DNA of 64,000 nucleotides from Trypanosoma brucei (taxonomy: Eukaryota). The stretch spans positions 704,001-768,000 of the forward strand of contig CM000208.1 of the NCBI GenBank assembly GCA_000002445.1, given 5' to 3'. The notes beneath the pieces were generated by a model, which made no database searches, had not been told where the DNA came from, and saw nothing but the letters and a program-made list of their open reading frames with translations. Position numbers and translations under genes: made by a program. Of the stretch, positions 4,947-64,000 are shown piece by piece (within the stretch, counting starts at the first letter, position 1; each line of letters begins with the position of its first letter).

Positions 4947-6163
4947 AGCCCCGTGGCCTCATTCCGTCCATCGTAACTTCAATTTTTCCCCACTCCTGTC
5001 TTTACTCTTATTTTTCCTCCATATTCCCCTTTTTGTTTACTTCAGCGTCGGCTGCTGTGTGCGGACCGCCTTATTTCCCTCACCTTTTTTTTTTTGCACC
5101 ACATTAATTTTTCACTTCGGTCCCTTCCATCGTCGTGGCATATCGGGTATATCGCGCGCTGTGGTGATGCACTCAGAGGCGTGAAATGAAGCGCAACATA
5201 CTCCTTCCTTGCCGTGGTGAACCGAAATGGTTTTTTGTACTTGCCTCACAGTTGTTACCATGTAGTTTACATCTGCAACCGTGTGAATCAATTCGCATCA
5301 CAAAGGCTGTTTGGGGTAGGGCAGAAGAAAGCTAAATGACTTGTTGGTATTCTAACCTCGTTGTAGTCGTTAAATAAATCGCAACGAAAGGTAAACATAT
5401 TGTGGCTTGCGCCATTCCGTTCCGCTTCATTTTATTCCCCTTTTGAATGTTTTCTTCGGCGCTTCTCTCATGTATACGAAATGGGGAAAAAATGAAGAAC
5501 CGAACGAGTGCACTGCAATAATAATAAGGTAAAAGCAGTTACAGTAGTGAAAATTGGGAAGAAGTGGAGGGCAGGTACACGTGGTTTCTTTTTTTTCCAT
5601 ACTGTTCTGTGTACTAGTGGACGGTGAAGCGTTTTAAGTGTTGTTTGCGGAGACGGGAAACGAAAAACCAAGAAATGGAGGATGAGGGAAATTTGTTGGG
5701 TGTCGATGTGGGAAAAGAGAGGAAGGGAAGGCTGTACACTTTCATTGGGTATCTGCCCTTACATCGAATGAAGCGGGCAGGGAAGCGAGGGGGGATTATA
5801 ATGGAGTGAAGGCATTTAATAGAGTAGGACATAGTCGGGTGAAAGAAGGTGATGACGGGGAAGTAAAATAAACCCTGTACAGCGCAGGTGTGGGAATTCT
5901 TGTCCAGTCTGTTTATTTTTCCTCCTTTGTTTCTCCCCCTTGTGTGGGGTATAGTTACACAACCCTTCCTCTTTTTGTCTTCTTATGCCTGCACGTCGGC
6001 ACAACCATTGTTGAGTATTGTCTCGTTGCTGTACTCCTCTATGGCTTACTTGCCTGTGATATCAAGTACCTTCATAGCGGTTGCCTCCCCTCTGTCGAAG
6101 GAAGGGGAAAAAAGAGGGGTAAAATTACACATTACCGGGAATATTCACAGCGTTTCTTAACCG

Positions 6164-32187: not shown

Positions 32188-35100
32188 ATGGCTGAGCCGC
32201 CACCACCGCAACCACTACGTAAGGGTTTTTTTCGTGCTGATCCCCATGGCCTGCGGCCACCAGAGAGCCCTCGTGATGCTGAGGAGCCTGAAAACCATGA
32301 CATTGTTGAGGATCCTCCACTCCCATCCAGTCGTAACTTGCCGCCTCCACGCTTGCGACCCATGGGTGGCGGACCACCATTGGCAGGGGCGGAAGCAGCG
32401 GCAACTTCACATTCAAACAACCGGCCATCACCCGGGGAGGTCCCGCCGCTGCCGCGACCGGGGACTACGACTGCAGTCACATCGGCGCAATATAATAGTC
32501 TGACTCCTCGGCAAGAACTTTTCAGCAGCCCACAAACAGCTGTCGAGGAAAATATTCCAGCTGGGTACGATAATCAAATGAACGTGACATCCAATGACTT
32601 TTCTCATTCACAAGATACAGGGATAAAAAGAATCGGAGATGGTGCAACAGGCTCATCGGCGAAAACACGTTCCACGATTGCACATGCGCCAAGCGGTCGA
32701 TTTTCTGAGGTAGTGCAGGAGCGACCCCCTATCGAATCTGTGGAGCAGCTATGTCAGCTCCAGACTCTAGCTCATCCAGTGGAGCGCTTTTTTGTTGAGT
32801 ATCAACCCATGGCAACGCGTGGTTGCCGCAGTACCCAAGTACCCGTTGAGGAGGACGAAGCTCTGTTCAATCATCTCGCGGAGTACACGGATGATGATTC
32901 TTTCTTTTCATCTGGTAGTGCTGTTCTTGAAGAAGACACACGTCGGCTCCAGAACGATCCGTTACGGGGCCGCGCTATTCGTTCTGTGTTCGAGACGCTC
33001 TCACTGCGCTCCCTCACAAAGGGTCGAATACCTTACGAATTGGAGGATCAGGAGCGCAGCAGTGCTCCCTGGTTGAAGCAAGTTCATCAACGGGCGATTG
33101 CACTTCATCATTCGTCATTCTTTATATTTCCTGCAGGTATGAAAGCTCGTGTAATTGCGTACAACATTCTACACCACTGGTTGACTGAAATGTTGCTTAT
33201 GTTAATCATCTTGGTATATTCCATGATGACAGCGGCCTGGTCCCGCGACACATGGCCCACATTGGAGAAACCGTCCTTCATGTTCTTCGCTGATGTTTTC
33301 TTCCTGTGTATCTACGCAATCGAATTTGTCGCACGGCTTTTTACTTCGGGCGCTGTTTCGCACTCCCGGGCATACTTTCGGTCGCCATGGCACTGTCTCG
33401 ACGCCGCAGTGCTTTTGCTGATGATATTGAACTGCACAAACCTCCAATCGATGTGGAATTTTTCGGCATTCCGTCTCATTCGTGTTTTGAAGTCGAGCAC
33501 ATACGTGCCTATTCCAATTAACATGAAGCTGCTGGCGAAGTCGCTTCTCCGTTCAACGTCCAATGTGGTGAAGGTGTCCACTATCCTTTTTTATGTGCTG
33601 TTGTTCTTCTCGCTCGTGGGCCTTCAGCTCTTCTCGGGAGTGCTCCAGCACCGCTGTGTTAGTCCAACCACGAAAAATGTAACAAATCAGTTGTGCCGCT
33701 TTAACCACAGTGAAAAAAATGAAAGTTATTACCACGGAGCTACGTGCCCCTCACCCCACTTATGCGTTGCCGACACATACGGAAATCCCCACCACGGCTA
33801 CCGCAGCTTTGACAGTGTGGGACACTCATTTTTATCGGCTTTCCAGATAATGACGTTTCAGGGCTGGACAAGCCTGCTGCAAGAGACATCAGACACTACA
33901 TCAGTAGCAGCTATTCTGTACTTTTTTTTGGCGATCCTGATCTGTGCGTGGATTATCCCTAGCTTATATTTGGGAGTCTTTATTGAAAAAATCGAGAAAA
34001 CGAGACGATTGTTTGTACAGAAACAACTGCAGCTATTTGACGGTATGCTACTGGAGCAGCGGCAACGATTGAATGAGGCAATCAAGCTTCGTGATTTTGT
34101 CGAACGCGATGAAAGTGGAAAATTACGCCGACATCCAATCGAACTCATCCGGTCTGCTTCACGGAGGATTCAGAGGTCGAAACTCTCGAACAGCCAAACA
34201 AGCATCGCAACTGAGTCAGAGTCGGGAGAACCCGCAGTCGTGGTGAAAAAACCCATTGGGGACACAACAAAAGGTCGATCTCGCTGGACAGACGAGCAGC
34301 GTGTTCAACTCCACCTTTCGCTCACACGACAACGTGATATTGCCAGTGGGGGTGAACGCAGACGACGTGTGGTGATCAAAAATGATGGTGAGATAAGCGG
34401 GGGAACTGCTGGCCTCCATTCGCAACGGAAGGGATCGGAGTCAATAGGGGAGCGGGCGATGATGGTGACGGGGGATTTTGCGCTTGGAGGCCGCGTTGGC
34501 GTGGTCCAGCACCATCCGCTCACTCACACTATTGGTGCAGCTCACGGCACGGACCTTCCCCTGGCAGTTCGTCTAGATAACGAGGAAGAACAGTTGAGGT
34601 TCCTCAAAGATTATCAAAACCCGATAGACAATGACATAATGAGGCGGACTAACACTTTCGAGGACACAAACGGAAACTTACATCCCTCTTTCGTGCTCAC
34701 CTCAACGCAGCGAAGGGGTGGAAGCTTCGATGAGGCATCCAACACAATTCGAACAACCACGGAAGCTGCTGGTGTCATTCCAAGCCGTCACTCAGCCACA
34801 CTGAATGGTCATAATACTAGTAGGATGGACTCCAACGGGAGTTTAGATGAACCTACATCAAAGACCCAAACCGTATCGAAACGCGGGTCCCCAATGCCGC
34901 GTTTGTCCTCCGGTCAGGTACCCGAAGTTATTATCCACGACCCCGAAGGCGGTGACTTCCGATTCGCTGAAACGCGTTCACAGAAGTGGGGAATTGTACG
35001 TAATATCTTGCACATGTTCACCGAAGGGTATCCTCGCATTATTACGCAGTATATCCGTGAACATCGTCGGATGCAGCGACGGTTTGGTCTCACACCCCTC

Positions 35101-38100
35101 AATTACGTGAATAAGTACGAAGATGACGTGCTTCGGAAACTGCGGCAGCGGCGTGTGCTTCAAGTAAAGGAACCAGGTGCACCGTCACAAACTTCGCGCG
35201 CAAGCGGTGACGAGGAACTTGTCGAAGTGAATGGAAATAAGGTTATCCTAACCGACAGCGATGATATTGGAGACCTGTCACCGATTCAAATGGCTACCAA
35301 TATTGTTAGAAATGTACCTGTAACGCCTTTCGGTGCCGTGATGCTGGTTATTGTCATCGTCAACGGCATTTTCAACGCAACGCGGTATTTTCAGCAACCA
35401 GAATATTGGGAAACTGCCCTTTTTGTCCTTGGTATTATTTTTACGTCATTTTTCGTGCTGGAGATTGTTGTCCGTGTCATAGGACTCGGGCTCGTTTCAT
35501 TTTTACTGGATTTCAACAATCTGTTGGATGTTACTGTTACAATTCTCGGGTTCGTGGAGCTCGCCTACGCACGGTCAAACGTCGTTACAGTGCTAAACTG
35601 GGTGAGGCTTCTGCGCCTATTTCGCACTTTGCCATTTGCACCTATGCGGCGGGTGTCACGAGTGCTGTTACTGGGTTTCGCAGACATGTTGTATGCGTTG
35701 TTCTTCTTCAGTATCTACATGTTTATGTGGATTCTCATCGGCATGAGTTTCTTCGGCGGTCCCAATGGCATGGTGGATCATACGTTCCAGGATTACTACA
35801 CGCGTGGAAATTTTGACACATTTTCTGGTGCTTCATTTGCTGTGTCGCAGGCATTCTCATATACTCGTGAGGAATGGGTGTACCTGACGTGGAACGGCAT
35901 GCAATCTCGTGGTGAGTACACCGTTCTTTATTTCATGGCCGTCGTCGGTGTGGCTTTTATTGCCCGCTACTTCTTCGTCGCCGTGTTCGCGTGGGCATGG
36001 CAGAGCGAGGAAGAGGAGGAAGAAAACTACGCAGCAATCGCTAAAGGTGGTTCAGGTGGCCGACGGGAAGTTACCCGACTGCGTTGGTTTGACTTTACTG
36101 TGTGGCGCTCGTTCAAGCACATACATGGAGGGTTCGAGAGGCGAGATGTTGCACCGGATGAAGTGTTTCATTTGAACGAAGATATGCGCAAACAACTTCG
36201 CATTGCGGAAGCAAAGGAACGGTTCACCAAAGAGGCCCTCGCGCAGACCGACTTGGCCATGAGTCAACGCCGGATGGGGTCTCCGATGGCCAGCCCTTCT
36301 GCAACCATGGGATATAATACAGACGGCTACGCACCGGCGGCGCAGGTTGGCACAGCTCCTAGATATGTTAACGTTGGTGGGCAACTGCAGCGTCACATAA
36401 ACCCATCAGTTGACTTTGTTGATGCGCAGGTTCCACCCCTTAACGCGCCCATATCCCAGTTTCAAGCTGAGAATGCGCAACTCCGGTTCGCCCGTCGGTA
36501 TAGCACCGTTCCCGCCTCGGTGTACACTCCTGTAATACAAGATGATGGTATTGATAGACCATCCCCTTCAGCCCGTTCAAGCCCGTCGGATGCGGGGGAG
36601 CGGAGCGGGGAGCTTGGTGGGGAAAGTCAGCAAAATGGCCAAGAGGAGGGAGACGGTCAATATTCTCCGAGGGGGGTGTCACCTAATGGAACGGGAGGGA
36701 GAGCGACTTCGACGGGCCTGCAACGAAAATCAAGTGTCCTTGGGCGTTTTCCCAGGTTGGGGTACGATCGAGCTGCAGGTAAGAAAGACGGAGGGTCAAG
36801 AAGTGTAAGCGCCTCCGCCATGCAACAGACGGGTGACGGTAACGAGTTGAGGGGAGACTACGTTAACGAGGGAGAGGTCAACGGTGGCAGCATGGTGTAC
36901 GAACACATTCTGTACCCTGGGCCGCGGTTACGCTACAAACACGTAATGCGAAACCAATACGTGCGGGTGTTTGAGCGTTGCTTAGATTGTAATACCTATC
37001 AACAGATGCCCTTGCGGGCCCCGCCGAATGTCCAACAACGAACACCGGAAGAATTACATGCTGAACACTGTCACATGGCTGCTGTGCGGAGTTCGCGTCA
37101 ACTGGTATTGAATGCCATAATGGGTTATGTTCGCTTGCAGAAAGATATTAATCAACCACCGACGCGTGATGCAGTTGAAACGGTACTTGGACAAGCTTGG
37201 AGTTGTGGAATGTTGCTGTTCGAAACAATCGAGTATCTCTCCTGTAGTGATATAGAGCAGCGGGAGTATCGAACGTGGGATCGCACACTGGAGGCGTTGC
37301 AATTGCAACAATGGTTGATAGGTCTGCATGTGGGCGAAGAACAAGTTGGTCGTGCAACCCTAGCCTACACATTGGCCCACCGAAAGAGGGAGAAACTCGC
37401 CGTGGAACACAAGTCGTTTGAGCTTTCGTGGCGTCAGCGTTCTTTCTTTTTCATATCTCCTTCGAACCCGGTGCGTCGTTTGTCAACGAGAATTATACAG
37501 TCACGATGGTTCGACATTTTTATTCTCACTGTTATATTCATTGCGTCATTTTGCCTATGTTTCCACATTCCCGGAAAGGCTAACGACCCAGAAACGGGTT
37601 TCGTTGTGCTACGTGCCTTTGACGGAATCTTCACCTGTATATTTTTGGTGGAGATGATAATGAAGTGGATCAGCATGGGTGTAATTCTCTTCAGACCGGA
37701 GGCATACTTCTGGCACTGGTGGAACGTTTTTGATTTCGTTATTGTCATTGTGTCGCTGATCGGATTGGCAGACCAACACAGCGCCCTCCGCTCCATCAAG
37801 GTTTTGCGTTGTTTTCGGATACTTATCCCTATGCGGGTGTCCAACTTCAATAGAAGTCTTTCCAAGATCTCGTCAGCCTTACTTGATTGTCTGCCGACAG
37901 TAGCGAACATTCTTCTGCTGTTTTTTATCAATTACTTTGTGTGGGCTGTGCTGGCAGTACGGCTTCTAAATGGCCTCACCCACTCTTGCAGTGATCCGTC
38001 CTTCGTCGACATTACGGCCTGCGAAGACGCCAAACATGAATGGTTGCCCAAAGTGCGTAATTTTGACTCTTTCTTCCAAAGTTTGCTGACAATGATAGAG

Positions 38101-40269
38101 GTCAGCGTGGGGTCGAAGTGGCTGGATGTTATTTACACGGGTGTAAATGGTCGAACGTCTGAACATGCGCCTATGGATGACCATTACCTTGCAAGGGGAT
38201 TCTTCTTCATCGTATACTATTATGTCTCCCACCTCATTTTGTTCTCACTGTTTACTGCGTCTATGATTTACAGCTATCTGTTAACCAAAAATGCAGCTGA
38301 GGGAGTATTGGGGATCACGTTTGAGCACCAGCTTTGGATTCGCATGCAACGTATGACACTGCAACTCAAGCCACGTGTAAAGCTTGTTCCTTTGTGCAAC
38401 CACGTGTCACAGTTTTTGCACAATGTTGTCATCCGCCCCATATTTGAGGTAGTGGGTGCGAGTGTACTTCTTCTCAACATTCTTACCATGGCATTGCACT
38501 GGTATGGCGAGACTAAATCGAAGGCAAGCGTGTTAGCTGCCTTTCAATATGTGTGGATGTTTTACTTTACCGTCGAGGCGGCCATGAAGATTGGAGCCCA
38601 CGGAATGCGGGCGTTCTCCCGGTGGGCGTTTTCTTTTGACTTCTTCGTGTTACTATTGTCCTTTATTGGGTTAATAGTGGATGCGGCAAGTAGCGAGGGT
38701 ATGCCGTTTAACGTGAACGTACTTCGTATGCTGCGGCTAGGTCGCTTCTTCTCCGCTGCAAAGGTTTTTAAGCCGATGAGGAAGCAGTTTTCATTACTGC
38801 ATGAAGTGCTGATTCGTTCGGCAGTTTCCCTTGCCAACGTGACGCTTATATTGTTTCTAGGGGTGTTCGTCTTCACGGTACTTGGTCTTCACCTCGTTGG
38901 AGGTGTTCCTGTAGGGGAAGGTGGTTACTTTGACGACCGGTACACAAATTTCAACAATTTTGGTAATTCGCTGATGATGACGTTTCGCCTCACCACTTTG
39001 GAGAACTGGAGCCCGTCGCTTCGGGAAGGTATGAATGTCACACGCAAATGCACTGAAGATGATTGCAGCGTGAACTATGGGTCGGCGTTTTACTGTCTTC
39101 TGCTACTTGTTTTCCTCGGGTTAATTGTTCTCAGTTTTTACATGGCGGTGATTGTGGATCATTACGTTACAGCTGCACGCATGAACACGAGCATAACACG
39201 TATTGAAGACCTGCGGAGGTTCCGTGATCTGTGGTCCGAGTTCGATCCCAATGGAGCACTCGTGCTGCACACACACGAACTCCCAAAACTTCTCGAATCT
39301 CTGAGACCACCCCTTGGTCTTACCTCCAGGCATAATCGTGTCGAGCTTCTTAGATTACTGCGAGAGTATGACATTCCAAATCACCGTGGGAAAGTTCACT
39401 ACCACGAGGTGCTTCTGCCGTTGGCTCGCAGGGTCCTGGCAATGGCCTTCAGCAGAGATACGATGGATTACAGGACAACGTTTGACACATTATGGCGCCA
39501 CTCCGAGAAGTCGCTCCGTGCACTGCCAACAGTGCTTGGTAAGCGCTCCCACGCAACCGCCGCGCAGCATTTTGCTGCGAGCTATGTGCAGGCGGTATGC
39601 CGAAGGAAGAAAGCTTGTCGAGAGGTGCAGAGGGTACGATCTGAACTTTGGCACGAGGGTCGTGCTGTTTGTGACGAGCTCGGTTTGCCCTATGCGGATT
39701 ACGGCTTTGGGAACCTTTTACTGGAGGGTCCGGATCCTATGCGAGATCTTGTGCCACGCAGTGCCTCTGCAGCGAGCTCTGGTGGAAAAGGCACCCGAAA
39801 AGGTGCCAGTGAAGCGGAGAACGCCGCCTCTTCCCCACTGTGGCGGGCAGGCCAGGCCGAATCGCCGTCGAGTCCAAGGAGTGAGGGAGAAACGATTGAC
39901 GGCAGGGCCCCTGCCGCCCGCCTTCCCGGCGCGTACCAACCGGCGATAGAAGAACGTGAGAAACGGTTTGGCCCCGATGTTCCGAACGCTCTTCGACGCC
40001 ACGAAACACGCTCGGAAAAACTTAGACGCAAGGATGAGGAGCGGATGCTGCAATCCACTCCCGATGATGCGGTGTCTTCACCAGTATCCAACGTGCGCTC
40101 GAATTCGCAGCGAGTTAACGTGGGCGAATACCAGCCACCACTAGGAACAGATCCCACCAGTTGGCTTGGTAGCAATGTAAACCGTGGGTCAACCGTAGGT
40201 GGACCAACGACAGAATCTCGCACGAGTAGCGTTATGCCTGCTCCACAGGGACCTACAGCACCAGAGTAG
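32188..40269 (+). CDS. Four-domain (24-TM) voltage-gated cation channel of the CaV/NaV superfamily (2693 aa)
   Basis: Four homologous repeats, each with an S4 voltage-sensor: DI FRLIRVLKSS (~nt 33468-33500); DII WVRLLRLFRTLPFAPMRRVSRV (~35600-35665); DIII IKVLRCFRILIPMRV (~37795-37840); DIV VLRMLRLGRFFSAAKVFKPMRK (~38720-38785). Pore loops: DI FQIMTFQGWTSLL, DII …SYTREEWVYL, DIII …TMIEVSVGSKW…, DIV …TFRLTTLENWSP. A post-DIV EF-hand-like/pre-IQ region (DLRRFRDLWSEFDPNGALVLHTHELPKLLESLRPPLGL, ~39180-39330) is present. Long cytoplasmic N-terminus, I-II loop and C-tail. Confidence 0.85.
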   Translation: MAEPPPPQPLRKGFFRADPHGLRPPESPRDAEEPENHDIVEDPPLPSSRNLPPPRLRPMGGGPPLAGAEAAATSHSNNRPSPGEVPPLPRPGTTTAVTSAQYNSLTPRQELFSSPQTAVEENIPAGYDNQMNVTSNDFSHSQDTGIKRIGDGATGSSAKTRSTIAHAPSGRFSEVVQERPPIESVEQLCQLQTLAHPVERFFVEYQPMATRGCRSTQVPVEEDEALFNHLAEYTDDDSFFSSGSAVLEEDTRRLQNDPLRGRAIRSVFETLSLRSLTKGRIPYELEDQERSSAPWLKQVHQRAIALHHSSFFIFPAGMKARVIAYNILHHWLTEMLLMLIILVYSMMTAAWSRDTWPTLEKPSFMFFADVFFLCIYAIEFVARLFTSGAVSHSRAYFRSPWHCLDAAVLLLMILNCTNLQSMWNFSAFRLIRVLKSSTYVPIPINMKLLAKSLLRSTSNVVKVSTILFYVLLFFSLVGLQLFSGVLQHRCVSPTTKNVTNQLCRFNHSEKNESYYHGATCPSPHLCVADTYGNPHHGYRSFDSVGHSFLSAFQIMTFQGWTSLLQETSDTTSVAAILYFFLAILICAWIIPSLYLGVFIEKIEKTRRLFVQKQLQLFDGMLLEQRQRLNEAIKLRDFVERDESGKLRRHPIELIRSASRRIQRSKLSNSQTSIATESESGEPAVVVKKPIGDTTKGRSRWTDEQRVQLHLSLTRQRDIASGGERRRRVVIKNDGEISGGTAGLHSQRKGSESIGERAMMVTGDFALGGRVGVVQHHPLTHTIGAAHGTDLPLAVRLDNEEEQLRFLKDYQNPIDNDIMRRTNTFEDTNGNLHPSFVLTSTQRRGGSFDEASNTIRTTTEAAGVIPSRHSATLNGHNTSRMDSNGSLDEPTSKTQTVSKRGSPMPRLSSGQVPEVIIHDPEGGDFRFAETRSQKWGIVRNILHMFTEGYPRIITQYIREHRRMQRRFGLTPLNYVNKYEDDVLRKLRQRRVLQVKEPGAPSQTSRASGDEELVEVNGNKVILTDSDDIGDLSPIQMATNIVRNVPVTPFGAVMLVIVIVNGIFNATRYFQQPEYWETALFVLGIIFTSFFVLEIVVRVIGLGLVSFLLDFNNLLDVTVTILGFVELAYARSNVVTVLNWVRLLRLFRTLPFAPMRRVSRVLLLGFADMLYALFFFSIYMFMWILIGMSFFGGPNGMVDHTFQDYYTRGNFDTFSGASFAVSQAFSYTREEWVYLTWNGMQSRGEYTVLYFMAVVGVAFIARYFFVAVFAWAWQSEEEEEENYAAIAKGGSGGRREVTRLRWFDFTVWRSFKHIHGGFERRDVAPDEVFHLNEDMRKQLRIAEAKERFTKEALAQTDLAMSQRRMGSPMASPSATMGYNTDGYAPAAQVGTAPRYVNVGGQLQRHINPSVDFVDAQVPPLNAPISQFQAENAQLRFARRYSTVPASVYTPVIQDDGIDRPSPSARSSPSDAGERSGELGGESQQNGQEEGDGQYSPRGVSPNGTGGRATSTGLQRKSSVLGRFPRLGYDRAAGKKDGGSRSVSASAMQQTGDGNELRGDYVNEGEVNGGSMVYEHILYPGPRLRYKHVMRNQYVRVFERCLDCNTYQQMPLRAPPNVQQRTPEELHAEHCHMAAVRSSRQLVLNAIMGYVRLQKDINQPPTRDAVETVLGQAWSCGMLLFETIEYLSCSDIEQREYRTWDRTLEALQLQQWLIGLHVGEEQVGRATLAYTLAHRKREKLAVEHKSFELSWRQRSFFFISPSNPVRRLSTRIIQSRWFDIFILTVIFIASFCLCFHIPGKANDPETGFVVLRAFDGIFTCIFLVEMIMKWISMGVILFRPEAYFWHWWNVFDFVIVIVSLIGLADQHSALRSIKVLRCFRILIPMRVSNFNRSLSKISSALLDCLPTVANILLLFFINYFVWAVLAVRLLNGLTHSCSDPSFVDITACEDAKHEWLPKVRNFDSFFQSLLTMIEVSVGSKWLDVIYTGVNGRTSEHAPMDDHYLARGFFFIVYYYVSHLILFSLFTASMIYSYLLTKNAAEGVLGITFEHQLWIRMQRMTLQLKPRVKLVPLCNHVSQFLHNVVIRPIFEVVGASVLLLNILTMALHWYGETKSKASVLAAFQYVWMFYFTVEAAMKIGAHGMRAFSRWAFSFDFFVLLLSFIGLIVDAASSEGMPFNVNVLRMLRLGRFFSAAKVFKPMRKQFSLLHEVLIRSAVSLANVTLILFLGVFVFTVLGLHLVGGVPVGEGGYFDDRYTNFNNFGNSLMMTFRLTTLENWSPSLREGMNVTRKCTEDDCSVNYGSAFYCLLLLVFLGLIVLSFYMAVIVDHYVTAARMNTSITRIEDLRRFRDLWSEFDPNGALVLHTHELPKLLESLRPPLGLTSRHNRVELLRLLREYDIPNHRGKVHYHEVLLPLARRVLAMAFSRDTMDYRTTFDTLWRHSEKSLRALPTVLGKRSHATAAQHFAASYVQAVCRRKKACREVQRVRSELWHEGRAVCDELGLPYADYGFGNLLLEGPDPMRDLVPRSASAASSGGKGTRKGASEAENAASSPLWRAGQAESPSSPRSEGETIDGRAPAARLPGAYQPAIEEREKRFGPDVPNALRRHETRSEKLRRKDEERMLQSTPDDAVSSPVSNVRSNSQRVNVGEYQPPLGTDPTSWLGSNVNRGSTVGGPTTESRTSSVMPAPQGPTAPE

Positions 40270-56001: not shown

Positions 56002-56022
56002 GGGAAGGAAGGAAGGAAGGAG
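56002..56022. repeat. (GGAA)n microsatellite
   Basis: Direct reading: gggaaggaaggaaggaaggag. Confidence 0.85.
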
Positions 56023-56192
56023 ACCGACCCAAACACTCCGGCAGCCAGCCGGCCAACGGAGATTGCAACTCGTCGCCTCGGAATAGCAAGGAAAAGAGAA
56101 AAGGTTGTGTGGATTGCGTTTTGCTCCGCGCACAGTATTTTTCTTTTTTTTTCACTTAGTGTGCTGCTCTCGTCGTGTGTAGTAATTAACAA

Positions 56193-58442
56193 ATGGGGAA
56201 TTGCTTGTGCTGCAGGGATAAACACAAACATGAACCGGAGCCGGAAGTCGTGATGGATGTAATGGATGTGAAAGAAAAGCAGGAAATAGGTCATCATAAT
56301 AAAACACAAGTCTCAACACCGCCTACATGTCAAAGTGATTATCCACCACCTTCTGGACTTCCAACCAGCCCCCCTGATGATACGCAGTCGAGTGTTTCTC
56401 CACGTGATAATGTCCAATTTGCAACCGCTCCACCGGACGATTCATCAAATGCGGCGTCACCTCGATATGACGAACAGCCTGTCACCACTCTGTCTCATGA
56501 TGTGGTTTCTTCAACTCCTCCTCGGGTTGAGACTCCACCAACTTCTTCCCCACGTGAAGAAGTCACTGATGTGGTCCCTGCCATCGAAGAGTTTACTCCT
56601 GCCGTTTCTCTTGGAGAAGAAGTGGTTGTATCTGAGGCTTCTCCTGCCGAAAACCCATTCACCGCTTCCCCACACGACGACACTACAGCGACGGGTTCCC
56701 GCGGCGACAATCCATTTACTGCCTCTCGAGACAACGCGGAATATGATTTCTCTCCCCGTGAAGACGTTAATCATCCTCCACAGGATAAGCCCGAAGTCGT
56801 CCTGGCATATGATTTCAGCGCCCCCGTTGCAAGTGTCTATAAGAATGCGGCAGTGTGGACATTTACCGCGCCCAAAGAGGAGAAAAGCGGCAACCGTGTG
56901 GTCGGTTTTGCCTCTGCAGAGCGGGGGCCCCGTGGTGATGTACCACCGTCAACTGAAAGAGTCTCAGAGAAGCCAAGTGGACGGGCTGATGAGGATTTTG
57001 ACACGGATGAAACGACTACAGGGAGGTCGAGCAAACCAGTGGATGCCGCTGATGATAGAGCCCCTAAGCTGCGGGCGCCATTGCTGGCCCCACCAGTGGA
57101 TGATACCGTAATGGAAAGTGAGGAGGCCGCTGAGGAGAGGGAGGCCCAAGTTTTCACAGAAGCAGCAAAGGAAGGAAATGAGTCTGTGGGTAAGGAACCC
57201 CCCGGTGGGGAAGGTGACACTTATCAGGTTAGTGATGCAGTTGAACTCGGGGACGCAATGGAAAGTACTAACGAGCCTGAGGTAAAGGAGATTGGCCAAG
57301 CGGATGTTGAGAAATTGAAGGGTGCGGGTACACCCGAAAAAGCTGATGATGAGGAGGAAAGCCCTCGCACATCGGGACGGCGTGACAACAACGTTTTGAG
57401 CCCGCTACTCGAAGATAAAGCCCCTGCTGTGCTTGCTGTGGCGGGCGAAAACAACGATGAAACTAACGCCTTCGTACACTCAGCGGAAAGGGCATTGGAA
57501 CAAAGTAAAGTTGGTAAGGATAGCGAGGAAAATAGTGAACTGGAAGGTGAGCATCCCAGTGAAGAGGGGTTGGGGGATGTTTCATATGCCAATACAGCAG
57601 GCGACCTCCCGGAGTCGGTTGCGTACACTACTCACAGTAGTGCTGAACTGCAGACGCGCAAGACAGAAGGGAGTCATGCGATAACCGATGGTGAAACAGT
57701 GAGGAAAAGTGACAGTAATGACAACGCTCTTGCAGGCATCATTCGCAGGCAGCGGGATATGGAGAGGCGAAGCAGTACGGGAGTGCTTCTTCCAACCCAG
57801 TCAGACGCCCTGGGTTTCTTGGAGACACACAGCAGCGGGGTTGCAGAACATGATTTAGTGAACACTGGAGTGGAAGGTGAAGATAATACCGATGGCAAAA
57901 TGCAATACCTGCAAGGTGAACTTTCACTTGACTTTGGGGGACTCGAGACTTTTAACGCAGATAATATGTCGGAGAACCGAGTGCACAGCTGGAGTAGTGT
58001 TGAATCTAATGGGGGCGCCGAAGATAGAGGAGAACGAGGTGCCAGCGGCTTAAATAATGAGGGAAATGACCGCACTGTAGGTGGCTGTGTTGACAGCGGG
58101 AGCAGCGATGGCGGAAGTGAACGCCGACGGCTCGCTGACATTGTTCAACCAAAGGATTGGGGGCGAGAAATACATGAGGAAGAGGAGGTAACTGAGAAGT
58201 ATTCGGTAGAGGAGGTAGTCGCTGACAAGGAAAAATCTGCTGAAGATCGTGTTAGCTACAATGAAGACTTTGGCGTTAATCGTTCTAACGAACTCTTCAA
58301 CGGAAGGGAGGCGTTTTTTCAAGATGAAAAAACGGAAAGTAAAAGCAGGTCAACCTCTGTCCCCTATCGTACCATCCCAATCATTTCCCCACCTCTGGCG
58401 ACACCTCAAAACAGAGAAGATGGTGACGAAAGTTTGATGTAA
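56193..58442 (+). CDS. Acidic low-complexity protein (749 aa) with N-terminal MGNCLCC dual-acylation motif and degenerate SPR(D/E)-containing repeats
   Basis: ATG at 56193. N-terminus is MGNCLCCRDKHKHEPE (Gly2 for myristoylation, Cys4/6/7 for palmitoylation). Residues ~60-200 show recurring …SPRDNVQF…SPRYDEQP…PPRVETPP…SPREEVTD…ASPHDDTT…NPFTASRDNAEYDFSPREDV… motifs. The rest is strongly acidic (E/D-rich). Confidence 0.55.
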   Translation: MGNCLCCRDKHKHEPEPEVVMDVMDVKEKQEIGHHNKTQVSTPPTCQSDYPPPSGLPTSPPDDTQSSVSPRDNVQFATAPPDDSSNAASPRYDEQPVTTLSHDVVSSTPPRVETPPTSSPREEVTDVVPAIEEFTPAVSLGEEVVVSEASPAENPFTASPHDDTTATGSRGDNPFTASRDNAEYDFSPREDVNHPPQDKPEVVLAYDFSAPVASVYKNAAVWTFTAPKEEKSGNRVVGFASAERGPRGDVPPSTERVSEKPSGRADEDFDTDETTTGRSSKPVDAADDRAPKLRAPLLAPPVDDTVMESEEAAEEREAQVFTEAAKEGNESVGKEPPGGEGDTYQVSDAVELGDAMESTNEPEVKEIGQADVEKLKGAGTPEKADDEEESPRTSGRRDNNVLSPLLEDKAPAVLAVAGENNDETNAFVHSAERALEQSKVGKDSEENSELEGEHPSEEGLGDVSYANTAGDLPESVAYTTHSSAELQTRKTEGSHAITDGETVRKSDSNDNALAGIIRRQRDMERRSSTGVLLPTQSDALGFLETHSSGVAEHDLVNTGVEGEDNTDGKMQYLQGELSLDFGGLETFNADNMSENRVHSWSSVESNGGAEDRGERGASGLNNEGNDRTVGGCVDSGSSDGGSERRRLADIVQPKDWGREIHEEEEVTEKYSVEEVVADKEKSAEDRVSYNEDFGVNRSNELFNGREAFFQDEKTESKSRSTSVPYRTIPIISPPLATPQNREDGDESLM

Positions 58443-60681: not shown

Positions 60682-61746
60682 ATGTCAACCGGAGCATTTA
60701 CTGAGGCCGATAGCCTTATGGCAAGTGCAAAAAAACATCTTAAAACTGGTTTGTTTAAACGCAAACCCGATTGGGGCTCTGCAGCGGACGACTACGAGAG
60801 AGCTGGTGGGCTCTACGTAAGTGATGGGAATGTGGAGAAGGCATGTGAAGCATATAATAGCGCGTGTGAAGCATATGAAAAGGTGGGTAGCCTTGTGTCA
60901 GCATCACTTATAAAATCCAAACTTGCTCAGTTCCTCGCTGAGCAGGCCCGGAAAGGATGTGGTGGGAAGAGTTTAGACAAAAAACTGATGGATAGCGCCG
61001 TGGAATCCTATCGTGGAGCCGCCAGGTATTATGCATTAGATGGAAAGTTTGACAGGATGGCAGAGACACTCGTTAAGGCGGCGGAATTAATTGACCCGAC
61101 AACACACTGTGCTTTCGCCTCTCCCCTCGCTGCAAAGTCAAATGTGGAAGGAGACCGGGAAAAAGTGAAGCAAGTGTGTGCACTTCTGGAGGAAGCAGCA
61201 GATGCAATAGAGGAGAATGAGGACAATAACAACAGCTACATCATTCGTCTACCTGATATATATCGTAAGTGGATGCTTGCCTGTTTGCGTAGTGGTGATG
61301 TGCTAAGAGCAATTGCTGTACTAGAGCGTCAGCTTGGTATCACGAATGGTTCAGGCGATGGCACCAGCAAAATAAAGGGAAAATGTGCAGGGGGGTTTTA
61401 TGCGAGACTTAATCAACCACACAATGTGGCTAAAACGGGGCTCGAAATTATTGTGCTGTGTTTGTCACTTGGGGACCTCGTACTGGCACGCATGAAGCTG
61501 GATGGGCTGCGCGGCATTTCTGGATTTGCAAACACAAAGGAAGAATCAACCGTGCGATCGCTTCTCGAAGCATTTGGTGAGCGTGACACAGAAATGCTAC
61601 AAGAAACATTGAAAGATTCAACTCTGATGTTCATCACGAATGACATCTCGAGGATGGCAAAAAAATTAGTGATTAGGTCCACCGAAGCAAAGCCGGACAC
61701 ATGTGAAGGAGGTGAGGTTATTGACGGTGAGGAAGACTTGCGATAA
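60682..61746 (+). CDS. TPR-like helical protein resembling soluble NSF attachment protein (SNAP family, possibly gamma-SNAP-like)
   Basis: 354 aa. The N-terminus SAKKHLKTGLFKRKPDWGSAADDYERAGGLY…KACEAYNSACEAYEKVG…AQFLAEQA follows the SNAP N-terminal pattern (…FFSGLFGG…EEA…Y.RAAN.FK…A..AF..AA.L…). Repeated helical TPR-like AxxxY/A units appear throughout. Similarity judged by eye. Confidence 0.45.
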   Translation: MSTGAFTEADSLMASAKKHLKTGLFKRKPDWGSAADDYERAGGLYVSDGNVEKACEAYNSACEAYEKVGSLVSASLIKSKLAQFLAEQARKGCGGKSLDKKLMDSAVESYRGAARYYALDGKFDRMAETLVKAAELIDPTTHCAFASPLAAKSNVEGDREKVKQVCALLEEAADAIEENEDNNNSYIIRLPDIYRKWMLACLRSGDVLRAIAVLERQLGITNGSGDGTSKIKGKCAGGFYARLNQPHNVAKTGLEIIVLCLSLGDLVLARMKLDGLRGISGFANTKEESTVRSLLEAFGERDTEMLQETLKDSTLMFITNDISRMAKKLVIRSTEAKPDTCEGGEVIDGEEDLR

Positions 61747-62129: not shown

Positions 62130-64000
62130 ATGGGCGACGCAGACGTCGCGACTGATCAGCAACAACAACGCTTGAAACAGGTACCAAACAGGGGAGATGC
62201 TATTAACGCAAATGCTGCCAACAGTTTTGACGATGAGGATGGTAACCAATGCCTTTGGCATCGCCGATCTCGTGAGGTACACGCACATTTGAAACGGCGG
62301 GTGGCGGGCATTCTTACGCAGATACGGTGCACGAGCAGTGCTAACCACTTTGATCGTCACAGAGTTGAGGTGGACGAGCTGTTGCGCTGCGACGCCCCCA
62401 TGGGGTTCACCCCTTCGATGATCCTTGCAGGTGTGCCTGATATTATCCACCTACTTACTGACGCTGTGAGGGATCGCAGGGTACTGGAGGTTGGTAGGGA
62501 AAATCGACAGGCCATATCGGCGCTCACCCCAATATGCCAAAGTTCGAATTTCCTTATAACTCCGAACCCTTTCTTCGTGAAGGAAATTGCATCGTCCATC
62601 TGGAGGGACTCGAGTAAATTCAAGGGAGACCGCGGAAATAACACACCTAGTAATGCGATGAGTTCAGTAGGCTCAAATGGTGCAAAGGGTGATAATATAG
62701 ATTGCTTTTTACCACCACTTGTTCGCCATGCAAAAGGTTCAGCACCGCAGGAGTATCCCCATACGACGAGTGCCTCACCCACTCGAGAAGGCAAACGGCT
62801 GGTGGCGAGAATAGGGAAGTCAAATGAGGTAACAACTGCAGCGGGGACGGCTGCGGGATCGAGGAAATGCGTGCGTGACGGAAGCAGTTCACCGCTTGAC
62901 AAATCGGGGCCGACATTACCGCGAATAGACGCTAACCGGCAGTCGGCGAATCGGCATGTGAACGGAACCGGGCAGGGAAACCAGCCACTACAGCAACAAT
63001 CAAACGGATTTCCCTCAGCGTGCGCGGTCTCGGATGCCGCCAACGCCAAGTGCGCTCCCCTTCTTTGCGATATCCCGTCTACTGTCGAGGCAATGATGTA
63101 CCACTGTGCCTTCCCGCTTGTGTGTATCACCCCGGAAGACTACGAAAGCCGTGCAAGTGCTACACACATACTGGTATCCACCCTTTCCTCAATAATTAGA
63201 AAAACTTCCGACAATAACCTTCATACTGAGTGCGAAGGGATTTCGGGGGTTGACAATGTCGCGAGCCAAAGCACTTCTGATGATGGTAAACCCGGAAGCA
63301 ATATCAACGGGGATTACAACTGTAATGCTCCTCGGCCGACGAATGCCGAACAAAAAAACTGTGATTTGGAGCATAAAAACATGCTTTACCGACTGCGTCG
63401 CGCGGCACTTCATACGCTCCACGCCCTCCTCTCCATCATGGATTCGGAGAATGCGAGTTTGGTAAACAAGCATTTTGCGGAGCGCGATCGTCAACTGTAC
63501 GATGCGTTTGGTGACATCAACTTCTCTACAGATAATACAATAATGGATATGTGCAGCCCTATGGATGAGACAAGGGAAAATGACAATGAAAGGGTCGAAA
63601 GCGTGAGCGTGAAAGTCCTCAGCGGGGGAACAATGGGCTCCCCGAGAGCGGTATCTCCCCGCCGTCGTCTGTCCACCGCATGCGTGAAAGTCATGCAGAG
63701 GACACAAAGAAATATGTTGGTTCGCCGTGTCGCGCCACTGAGTGTATATAACAACGCCGTTGATGTCAACGTACTTATCCCTTTGCTGGAGCGATGGACA
63801 TTCATCTTGGATAAAGGCACGGGGAGCAACGGAGTGCTGGATTCTGCACGTTTTCTGACTCAGCGTCCAGGGGCGTGGGAAGTAGAGGAAAGGAGCAACA
63901 AAATGGCAAATAAGAAATTGGCGATGGCATCCATCACCCGCTGTGGGCAAGAGGGTCATCATGTCATACCGGCAGAAATGCACAGTGAGAAAATTACAAC
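62130..64000 (+). CDS. Hypothetical protein, 5' portion (>623 aa; ORF runs off the 3' end of the window)
   Basis: Frame starting at the ATG at 62130 (MGDADVATDQQQRLKQ…) has no stop codon through nt 64000. Codon bias is coding-like. It is on the same strand as all other genes. It is absent from the supplied ORF track, presumably because it lacks an in-window stop. Confidence 0.6.
   Translation, partial: MGDADVATDQQQQRLKQVPNRGDAINANAANSFDDEDGNQCLWHRRSREVHAHLKRRVAGILTQIRCTSSANHFDRHRVEVDELLRCDAPMGFTPSMILAGVPDIIHLLTDAVRDRRVLEVGRENRQAISALTPICQSSNFLITPNPFFVKEIASSIWRDSSKFKGDRGNNTPSNAMSSVGSNGAKGDNIDCFLPPLVRHAKGSAPQEYPHTTSASPTREGKRLVARIGKSNEVTTAAGTAAGSRKCVRDGSSSPLDKSGPTLPRIDANRQSANRHVNGTGQGNQPLQQQSNGFPSACAVSDAANAKCAPLLCDIPSTVEAMMYHCAFPLVCITPEDYESRASATHILVSTLSSIIRKTSDNNLHTECEGISGVDNVASQSTSDDGKPGSNINGDYNCNAPRPTNAEQKNCDLEHKNMLYRLRRAALHTLHALLSIMDSENASLVNKHFAERDRQLYDAFGDINFSTDNTIMDMCSPMDETRENDNERVESVSVKVLSGGTMGSPRAVSPRRRLSTACVKVMQRTQRNMLVRRVAPLSVYNNAVDVNVLIPLLERWTFILDKGTGSNGVLDSARFLTQRPGAWEVEERSNKMANKKLAMASITRCGQEGHHVIPAEMHSEKIT

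What the first reader, a model, noticed from the sequence alone, without database searches (positions are those of the whole stretch)
56193..58442. MGNCLCC N-terminal dual-acylation signal on an acidic repeat protein
The encoded N-terminus MGNCLCC has Gly2 plus three nearby cysteines, the classic N-myristoylation and palmitoylation signal. In trypanosomatids this signal targets proteins to flagellar or pellicular membranes (as in calflagins/FCaBP, established knowledge). The body of the protein is a highly acidic, intrinsically disordered array with recurrent SPR(D/E) and NPFTAS motifs. This looks like a membrane-anchored acidic scaffold or possible low-affinity Ca-binding protein, and it sits about 16 kb downstream of the CaV-type channel gene.
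Basis: partly seen in the sequence, partly recalled or inferred. Interest (0 to 1): 0.55.

Follow-up and report, generated by a model that had tools for sequence, protein, structure and literature searches.

The report
Lipid-anchored disordered flagellar-pocket protein Tb927.10.2930
This is the uncharacterised Trypanosoma brucei gene Tb927.10.2930, an acidic, disordered phosphoprotein whose conserved MGNCLCC start was predicted as a fatty-acylation membrane anchor in 2007; a genome-wide tagging screen places it in patches of the flagellar pocket, and nothing ties it to calcium or to the nearby channel gene.

Summary
The ORF is real: 56193-58442 (+), 749 aa, MGNCLCCRDK..., pI 4.39. It is identical to T. 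b. brucei TREU927 XP_822546.1/Q38BV2, which is Tb927.10.2930 (old id Tb10.70.4650).

The acylation reading holds as a prediction:
- Gly2 and Cys4/6/7 fit the N-myristoylation pattern.
- The ATG is the first after a splice-acceptor-like site, with a stop two codons upstream.
- Residues 1-7 are identical in T. congolense despite four synonymous codon changes, while 11 of the next 13 codons change the residue.

This is not new. Mills et al. 2007 (Table S2) list this N-terminus as a high-confidence NMT substrate. TrypTag (2023) annotates the protein as "flagellar pocket, patches".

There is no tandem repeat, only enriched short motifs (SPR x5, NPFT x2). There is no EF-hand. Localisation is not flagellar or pellicular. 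The channel gene 15.9 kb upstream is separated by four unrelated genes.

My own idea that the NPF motifs bind EH domains is rejected, because Euglenozoa lack EH domains.

Best reading: a lipid-anchored, multiply phosphorylated, disordered scaffold on the cytoplasmic face of the flagellar pocket membrane. Function is untested.

The parts
56138..56159 (+). Polypyrimidine tract (56138-56157) followed by AG (56158-56159); the likely spliced-leader acceptor, giving a 5' UTR of about 33 nt
   Evidence: Read directly from the sequence. AG lies at -35 from the ATG and there is no ATG in the 120 nt upstream. Its use as the acceptor site is inferred, not shown.
56187..56189 (+). In-frame TAA stop two codons upstream of the start codon
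   Evidence: The upstream in-frame translation ends ...CSN*Q before M1. The ORF therefore cannot extend 5'.
56193..58442 (+). Coding sequence of Tb927.10.2930 (749 aa plus stop)
   Evidence: ORF call. It differs from the T. equiperdum protein only at residue 619 (G, not R), which is the TREU927 state. Six published phosphosite positions all fall on the stated S or T.
56193..56222 (+). MGNCLCCRDK: predicted N-myristoylation at Gly2 and S-palmitoylation at Cys4/6/7; conserved island 1
   Evidence: Matches PS00008. Published NMT prediction score 0.979. Residues 1-7 are identical in T. congolense with 4 synonymous and 0 non-synonymous codon changes, against 11 of 13 non-synonymous in codons 8-20.
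56421..56447 (+). ATAPPDDSS: conserved island 2 (aa 77-85)
   Evidence: T. brucei/T. congolense alignment A2: at least 6 of 8 identical in a 30% identity background.
56640..56663 (+). SPAENPFT: first NPF motif (aa 150-157), conserved island 3
   Evidence: Conserved as SQDENPFT in T. congolense, with synonymous changes in the E, N and T codons.
56697..56735 (+). SRGDNPFTASRDN: second NPF motif (aa 169-181), conserved island 4
   Evidence: Conserved as SHGENPFTSSRYN in T. congolense, with synonymous changes in the N, P, F, T and R codons.
56397..56405 (+). SPR motif 1 (Ser69)
   Evidence: Conserved as SPR in T. congolense.
56457..56465 (+). SPR motif 2 (Ser89)
   Evidence: Not conserved in T. 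congolense. Ser84, just upstream, is a reported phosphosite.
56547..56555 (+). SPR motif 3 (Ser119, SPREE)
   Evidence: TPRE in T. congolense.
56751..56759 (+). SPR motif 4 (Ser187, DFSPRED), phosphorylated in bloodstream forms
   Evidence: Tb927.10.2930 S187 is listed with localisation probability 1 in the supplement of PMC11408851. The residue was checked in the window ORF.
57360..57368 (+). SPR motif 5 (Ser390, EEESPRT)
57972..58007 (+). ENRVHSWSSVES: conserved island 5 (aa 594-605)
   Evidence: EGRVLSWSSVGS in T. congolense.
58380..58391 (+). IISP near the C-terminus (aa 730-733)
   Evidence: IISP in T. congolense and IMSP at the C-terminus of both Leishmania positional counterparts. This is a weak motif and its significance is unknown.

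Best explanation
The ORF is Tb927.10.2930, a trypanosomatid-restricted, intrinsically disordered, acidic phosphoprotein.

Proposed mechanism:
- After the initiator Met is removed, N-myristoyltransferase acylates Gly2 co-translationally.
- A palmitoyl acyltransferase then acylates one or more of Cys4, Cys6 and Cys7.
- This fixes the N-terminus stably in the cytoplasmic leaflet of a membrane, which according to TrypTag is a patchy subdomain of the flagellar pocket.
- The remaining ~740 residues have no fold. They act as a tethered, negatively charged, phosphorylatable chain that presents a few conserved short linear motifs to partners that are still unknown. The motifs are two [DE]NPFT[AS]S, ATAPPD and RVxSWSSVxS.
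- In short, it would be a lipid-anchored motif scaffold for a flagellar-pocket membrane domain.

Shown: the sequence features, their conservation, expression with multi-site phosphorylation, and the localisation annotation.

Inferred: both lipid modifications, the membrane topology, and the scaffold function.
For: Start codon and signal:
- First ATG after a polypyrimidine tract and AG, with an in-frame stop two codons upstream.
- Matches PS00008.
- Listed among the 62 high-confidence predicted N-myristoylated T. brucei proteins, score 0.979 (PMC1885993 Table S2).

Selection:
- T. brucei and T. congolense are identical over residues 1-7, with 4 synonymous and 0 non-synonymous differences. In codons 8-20, 11 of 13 are non-synonymous. 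Overall identity is 30%.
- The gene directly upstream of the gamma-SNAP-like gene in two Leishmania species also starts MGSCCC or MGSCCS.

Disorder and lack of domains:
- No Pfam domain.
- Hydropathy and net charge fall in the unfolded region, and there is no transmembrane-like segment.
- AlphaFold2 mean pLDDT 36.

Conserved islands are exactly the N-terminus, the two NPF motifs, ATAPPD and RVxSWSSVxS.

Expression and phosphorylation in bloodstream forms: sites T38, S84, S187, S309, S430 and S638, with 19 rows for the gene in the phosphosite table (PMC11408851).
Against: - No experimental lipidation data could be reached. The T. brucei myristoylome (Wright 2016) and palmitoylome (Emmer 2011) papers are not held.
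- I could not see whether the TrypTag pattern came from the N- or the C-terminal tag. An N-terminal tag would block myristoylation.
- Cys is at position 4, not the commoner position 3.
- The Leishmania counterparts are positional only. BLASTP and hhalign find no significant similarity, and synteny is anchored by one gene only.
- No 'GSCC' string occurs in the supplements of the L. donovani myristoylome study. This is uninformative rather than negative, because I do not know the L. donovani sequence.
- The scaffold function has no direct evidence.
Confidence: 0.6

Rival explanations
1. One reading: a dual-acylated, flagellar or pellicular, low-affinity calcium-binding acidic scaffold, functionally tied to the voltage-gated-type calcium channel gene 16 kb upstream.
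For: Net charge is about -84. The channel gene is 15.9 kb upstream on the same strand. From my own knowledge, calflagins show that dual acylation can target the flagellum.
Against: - No EF-hand by Pfam or by PS00018.
- TrypTag places it in flagellar-pocket patches, not along the flagellum or pellicle.
- Four unrelated genes intervene.
- From established knowledge, gene order in trypanosomatid polycistrons does not imply shared function.
- The Leishmania counterparts are less acidic: pI 4.9, D+E 87-96.
Confidence: 0.05
2. The N-terminal motif is not used, or only myristate is added. The protein is then a mostly soluble disordered phosphoprotein that reaches the flagellar pocket region through protein-protein contacts.
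For: Lipidation is predicted only. The tag terminus in TrypTag is unknown to me. Cys is at position 4 rather than 3. There are many phosphosites, as is typical of cytosolic disordered proteins.
Against: - The seven N-terminal residues are held constant against four synonymous changes, while the following residues diverge freely.
- The positional counterparts in Leishmania keep Gly2 plus clustered Cys.
- The published predictor score is high.
Confidence: 0.12
3. An epsin-like endocytic adaptor whose two NPF motifs recruit EH-domain proteins (Eps15 or EHD type) to clathrin pits in the flagellar pocket.
For: Two NPF motifs are conserved between T. brucei and T. congolense. The flagellar pocket is the site of endocytosis (PMC9981465).
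Against: - Euglenozoa 'completely lacks EH domains' (PMC4824007).
- No clathrin box, DPF/DPW or FxDxF motif is present.
- The clathrin-associated proteins Tb927.9.6560, Tb927.8.2820 and Tb927.8.3840 (PMC5399782) fall in the TrypTag class 'points', not 'patches'.
- The gene is not named in the main text of the clathrin interactome paper.
Confidence: 0.03

Closest known systems
Calflagins / FCaBP (trypanosome flagellar calcium-binding proteins)
   Same: An N-terminal MG...C signal, predicted or known to be myristoylated and palmitoylated. They appear in the same published prediction table. They are peripheral proteins of the inner membrane leaflet.
   Different: Calflagins are small EF-hand proteins of the flagellar membrane. 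This protein has 749 disordered residues, no EF-hand, no sequence similarity, and a flagellar-pocket-patch annotation.
Leishmania HASPB (hydrophilic acylated surface protein B)
   Same: Architecture: a dual-acylated N-terminus with the Cys a few residues from Gly2 (from my own knowledge, MGSSCTKDS has Cys5), followed by a hydrophilic, unstructured body.
   Different: HASPB is Leishmania-specific, has true tandem repeats and is exported to the cell surface. Here there are no tandem repeats, no similarity, and no evidence of export.
Kinetoplastid PPEF phosphatase and PI-PLC (dual-acylated proteins of the endomembrane and flagellar-pocket region)
   Same: Acylated N-termini that direct proteins to the endocytic or flagellar-pocket region (PMC1885993). 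PI-PLC, Tb927.11.5970, is in the TrypTag flagellar pocket 'ring' class.
   Different: Those proteins carry catalytic domains. This one has no domain at all.
Epsin and other NPF-bearing disordered endocytic adaptors of animals and fungi
   Same: A long disordered chain carrying NPF motifs at an endocytic membrane.
   Different: There is no ENTH or ANTH domain and no clathrin box. The reader domain (EH) is absent from Euglenozoa.

Membership tests
N-myristoyltransferase substrates | Initiator Met followed by Gly2, at the true translation start | tested here: met
   MG at 56193. There is an in-frame stop two codons upstream, no upstream ATG within 120 nt, and a polypyrimidine tract plus AG at -35. 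The N-terminus is conserved in T. congolense.
N-myristoyltransferase substrates | Sequence rule G-{EDRKHPFYW}-x(2)-[STAGCN]-{P} (PROSITE PS00008) and a positive predictor score | tested here: met
   The regular expression matches T. brucei, T. congolense and both Leishmania counterparts. Published predictor score 0.979, 'high confidence' (PMC1885993 Table S2).
N-myristoyltransferase substrates | Myristate demonstrably attached, and lost on NMT inhibition | not testable with these tools
   The T. brucei chemical-proteomic myristoylome paper is not held.
Dual-acylated (myristoyl plus palmitoyl) membrane-anchored proteins | Cys within a few residues of the myristoylated Gly, conserved in relatives | tested here: met
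   Cys4, 6 and 7. Cys4 is invariant, and at least one further Cys is present in T. congolense and in the Leishmania counterparts.
Dual-acylated (myristoyl plus palmitoyl) membrane-anchored proteins | Thioester-linked palmitate shown by labelling or acyl exchange | not testable with these tools
   The T. brucei palmitoylome paper is not held.
Dual-acylated (myristoyl plus palmitoyl) membrane-anchored proteins | Localisation to a membrane without a transmembrane segment | tested here: met
   No hydrophobic segment (maximum KD19 0.87). TrypTag lists it under 'flagellar pocket: patches'. Caveat: the tagged terminus is unknown to me.
Calflagin / FCaBP family | EF-hand calcium-binding domains | tested here: not met
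   No Pfam EF-hand at E<=1. No PS00018 loop.
Calflagin / FCaBP family | Flagellar membrane localisation | tested here: not met
   TrypTag flagellar pocket 'patches'.
Tandem-repeat acidic proteins (HASPB-like) | Head-to-tail repeated units | tested here: not met
   Tandem Repeats Finder returns 0 rows. Only short two-copy DNA matches were found. The best protein self-diagonal lies within the shuffled range.
NPF-motif / EH-domain endocytic adaptors | NPF motifs in a disordered region | tested here: met
   NPF at aa 154 and 173, conserved in T. congolense.
NPF-motif / EH-domain endocytic adaptors | An EH-domain partner encoded by the organism | tested here: not met
   From the literature: Euglenozoa lack EH domains entirely (PMC4824007), and Eps15/Eps15R are absent from kinetoplastids (PMC4450294). 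I did not re-scan the proteome.
NPF-motif / EH-domain endocytic adaptors | Lipid-binding ENTH/ANTH domain or clathrin box | tested here: not met
   No Pfam domain. No L[IVLMF]x[IVLMF][DE], DPF/DPW or FxDxF motif.

The most novel reading that the evidence does not exclude
Tb927.10.2930 would be a lipid-anchored disordered organiser of a flagellar-pocket membrane subdomain ('patches') that is distinct from the clathrin-associated 'points'. It shares that annotation with the kinase PIP5K3. Its two conserved [DE]NPFT[AS]S motifs would be read by a non-EH partner, in a lineage that has lost all EH domains. That would be a new motif-reader pair and a new handle on how the pocket membrane is partitioned.
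Probability: 0.15. Interest if true: 0.55.

Novelty: already known. Interest (0 to 1): 0.3.

Why it matters
The flagellar pocket is the only site of endocytosis and exocytosis in trypanosomes, and how its membrane is divided into subdomains is poorly understood. A conserved, lipid-anchored, domain-free protein that marks 'patches' could be a useful marker or organiser of one such subdomain. It is also one of the downstream substrates that might contribute to the lethality of NMT inhibitors.

The value of this check is mainly to correct the calcium, flagellum and repeat reading.

Tried and rejected
- Wider homologue searches found little. The exhaustive phmmer search of 1.8 billion representatives found only the T. 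congolense N-terminal fragment, E=2.4e-4.
- Orthology with Leishmania was tested by BLASTP and hhalign and is not significant. Flanking genes other than the gamma-SNAP-like gene are also not detectably similar. I therefore call the Leishmania genes positional counterparts only.
- NPF as an EH-domain ligand was considered and rejected on the literature.
- Clathrin-adaptor motifs and EF-hand loops were scanned and are absent.
- The repeat hypothesis is rejected.
- Literature searches for Tb927.10.2930 and Tb10.70.4650 in main texts gave 0 papers. The T. brucei myristoylome and palmitoylome papers are not held.
- The L. donovani myristoylome supplements contain no 'GSCC' string.
- The TrypTag preprint supplements do not hold the gene. 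The T. cruzi NMT paper does not mention the candidate.
Full report
**What is there**

Window 56193-58442 (+) is one uninterrupted ORF of 749 codons beginning MGNCLCCRDKHK.
- The frame is closed by TAA two codons upstream of the ATG (56187-56189).
- There is no ATG in the preceding 120 nt.
- A polypyrimidine tract (56138-56157) followed by AG (56158-56159) lies 35 nt upstream. That is the arrangement expected for a spliced-leader acceptor. Its use is inferred.
- The next Met codons are at residues 21 and 24.

The product is very acidic: pI 4.39, with 156 D+E against 72 K+R. It is rich in S, P, T, G and A. It has only five cysteines, three of them at positions 4, 6 and 7.

**Identity**

The protein differs from T. 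equiperdum TEOVI_000410900 only at residue 619 (G in the window, R in T. equiperdum). G is the state in T. b. brucei TREU927 XP_822546.1 / UniProt Q38BV2, which is otherwise identical to the T. equiperdum protein.

The gene is Tb927.10.2930, for three reasons.
- UniProt accessions run consecutively along the locus: Tb927.10.2910 is Q38BV4, 2950 is Q38BV0 and 2970 is Q38BU8 (supplement of PMC6907760). The ORF order in the window agrees.
- Six phosphosites published for Tb927.10.2930 (T38, S84, S187, S309, S430, S638) all fall on the stated residue in the window ORF. The chance of this is about 7e-7.
- The next-but-one gene downstream contains the published Tb927.10.2950 S504 peptide at the right offset.

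The old identifier is Tb10.70.4650.

Neighbours on the same strand are as follows.

| Window position | Gene | Basis for the name |
|---|---|---|
| 32188-40269 | four-repeat voltage-gated-type channel | Pfam Ion_trans x4 plus GPHH |
| 41416 | enolase | Pfam |
| 43790 | importin-beta | Pfam |
| 51626 | 1056-aa protein, Tb927.10.2920, 'SUMO-interacting motif-containing protein' | name, assigned by gene order |
| 60682 | gamma-SNAP-like protein | Pfam SNAP |

**Checking the observation**

The N-terminus, the acidity and the named motifs are all present.
- The motifs exceed chance in composition-preserving shuffles. SPR occurs 5 times against 0.33 expected. SPR[DEY] occurs 4 times against 0.07. 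NPFT occurs twice against 0.005.
- The protein is not a repeat array. Tandem Repeats Finder reports nothing. DNA repeat search reports only 14-24 nt two-copy matches.
- The best protein self-diagonal (PPDDTQSSVSPR / PPDDSSNAASPR, offset 20) scores 45, while shuffled sequences give maxima of 32 +/- 4, up to 49.
- Disorder is supported. There is no Pfam domain. Hydropathy and charge fall in the natively unfolded region, and no segment is hydrophobic enough to span a membrane. A single-sequence AlphaFold2 model has mean pLDDT 36 and no secondary structure. Single-sequence models are weak evidence on their own.

**Relatives and selection**

An exhaustive phmmer search of 1.8 billion representatives found only a 158-aa T. 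congolense protein, MGNCLCCGDK... (E=2.4e-4).

Its contig (CAEQ01002710.1, locus L001) shows the same gene order, with the gamma-SNAP-like gene downstream. The gene continues in another frame after a frameshift near L001 3728-3804.

Joining the frames gives a protein of about 940 aa that is 30% identical to the T. brucei one. Against that background only five islands reach 6 of 8 identities:
- aa 1-10, MGNCLCCxDK
- aa 77-85, ATAPPD
- aa 150-157, ENPFT
- aa 169-181, SxGxNPFTxSRxN
- aa 594-605, ExRVxSWSSVxS

At the codon level, residues 1-7 show four synonymous and no non-synonymous differences, whereas 11 of the next 13 codons are non-synonymous. The NPF motifs likewise carry synonymous differences. 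This is direct evidence of purifying selection on the acylation motif and on the NPF motifs.

In L. utingensis and L. enriettii, the gene immediately upstream of the gamma-SNAP-like gene encodes a Pro/Ser/Ala-rich protein of 694 or 637 aa, pI 4.9. These start MGSCCCVSD and MGSCCSTSD and end ...SIMSPSPA and ...SIMSPPPA.
- They match the N-myristoylation pattern.
- They show no significant similarity to the Trypanosoma proteins by BLASTP or hhalign.
- The other flanking genes are not detectably similar either.
- I therefore treat them as probable positional counterparts, no more. They have no NPF motif.

A T. cruzi candidate, Tc00.1047053506825.150 (MGNCCSSNSK), appears in the published prediction table. 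I could not examine it.

**What is already known**

Mills et al. 2007 (PMC1885993) predicted 62 high-confidence N-myristoylated T. brucei proteins.

- The same class includes the kinase PIP5K3, Tb927.10.3890.
- Three clathrin-associated proteins named in PMC5399782 fall in a different class, 'points'.

A bloodstream-form phosphoproteome (PMC11408851) reports many phosphosites on the protein. One is S187, the Ser of the DFSPRED motif. Two are acidic-context sites, S309 and S638.

No paper in the searchable library names the gene in its main text.

**Mechanism**

The best-supported reading has five steps.
1. NMT myristoylates Gly2.
2. A palmitoyl transferase acylates one or more of Cys4/6/7.
3. 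The double lipid anchor holds the protein on the cytoplasmic leaflet of the flagellar pocket membrane.
4. The long acidic, phosphorylated, unfolded chain displays a handful of conserved linear motifs.
5. Those motifs recruit or organise other components of that membrane patch.

Steps 1-3 are inferred from sequence, conservation, the predictor and the localisation list. Steps 4-5 are inferred from the pattern of conservation only.

I first suspected that the NPF motifs were EH-domain ligands, as in epsin. That fails on the literature:
- Euglenozoa lack EH domains altogether (PMC4824007).
- Kinetoplastids have lost Eps15 and Eps15R (PMC4450294).
- The protein has no clathrin box or other classical adaptor motif.

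- Calcium binding rests on acidity alone. No EF-hand or EF-loop pattern is present.
- The channel gene is indeed 15.9 kb upstream. However, four unrelated genes intervene, and gene order in trypanosomatid polycistronic units does not indicate shared function (established knowledge).
- Flagellar or pellicular targeting is contradicted by the TrypTag class.

**Limits**

- No experimental lipidation data were reachable.
- I could not see which terminus was tagged for the TrypTag annotation.
- Conservation beyond African trypanosomes rests on position only.
- My supplement look-ups and homology searches were exhausted before T. cruzi and T. vivax could be examined.

**Verdict**

This is a real gene with a real and conserved acylation-type N-terminus. 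The signal was already catalogued, and the protein was already localised by a screen. The repeat, calcium and channel parts of the interpretation are unsupported.

Some interest remains. The protein is an uncharacterised, domain-free marker of a flagellar-pocket subdomain, with conserved NPF motifs in a lineage that has no EH domains.

Noticed in passing
L001 3328-6151 (T. congolense IL3000, CAEQ01002710.1): The T. congolense orthologue is split into a 158-aa and a 747/807-aa reading frame by a frameshift in the overlap around L001 3728-3804. This is either an error in the draft assembly or a genuine disruption. The database holds only the two pieces.
   Followed up: partly
L001 about 5177-5464: The T. 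congolense protein carries a tandem duplication of about 48 aa ((V/A)IPNAVC..HQQKE.H.PTEPKGK.YDIDALF.SVAQQPLD, twice). It is absent from T. brucei. So a true repeat exists in the relative but not in the window gene.
   Followed up: no
window 56193-58442, residue 619 (nt 58047-58049): The search tool reported 100% identity to T. equiperdum. The window actually has Gly619, as in T. b. brucei TREU927, where T. equiperdum has Arg. The window is therefore most likely TREU927 chromosome 10. By eye (not computed), T. b. gambiense differs at about nine residues, all outside the conserved motifs.
   Followed up: partly
window 62130-64000 (+): A plus-strand gene running off the window end (start MGDADVATDQ at 62130) contains the published Tb927.10.2950 S504 phosphopeptide. 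The minus-strand ORFs listed at 62357-63130 and 63189-63983 are therefore antisense artefacts. No tRNA genes were found anywhere in the window.
   Followed up: yes
window 56193-58442 (sites T38, S84, S187, S638): Four phosphosites of Tb927.10.2930 appear in shorter tables of the DNA-break phosphoproteome paper (supplementary files 3 and 4 of PMC11408851), next to what look like fold-change values. I did not identify what those tables are. A DNA-damage response would be unexpected for a flagellar-pocket membrane protein.
   Followed up: no
window 56003-56018: A (GGAA)4 microsatellite within a purine-rich stretch lies about 180 nt upstream of the start codon, in the intergenic region.
   Followed up: no
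L002 6240-8324 and L003 4280-6193: The Leishmania positional counterparts contain a run of seven prolines (RAPPPPPPPA) and many PxxP motifs that are absent from the Trypanosoma proteins. They lack NPF. If these are orthologues, the motif content has been largely exchanged.
   Followed up: partly
window 60682-61746 (+): The downstream neighbour is a gamma-SNAP-like protein (Pfam SNAP plus TPR), conserved at 57% identity in T. congolense and about 35% in Leishmania. It served as the synteny anchor. No functional link to the finding is implied.
   Followed up: partly
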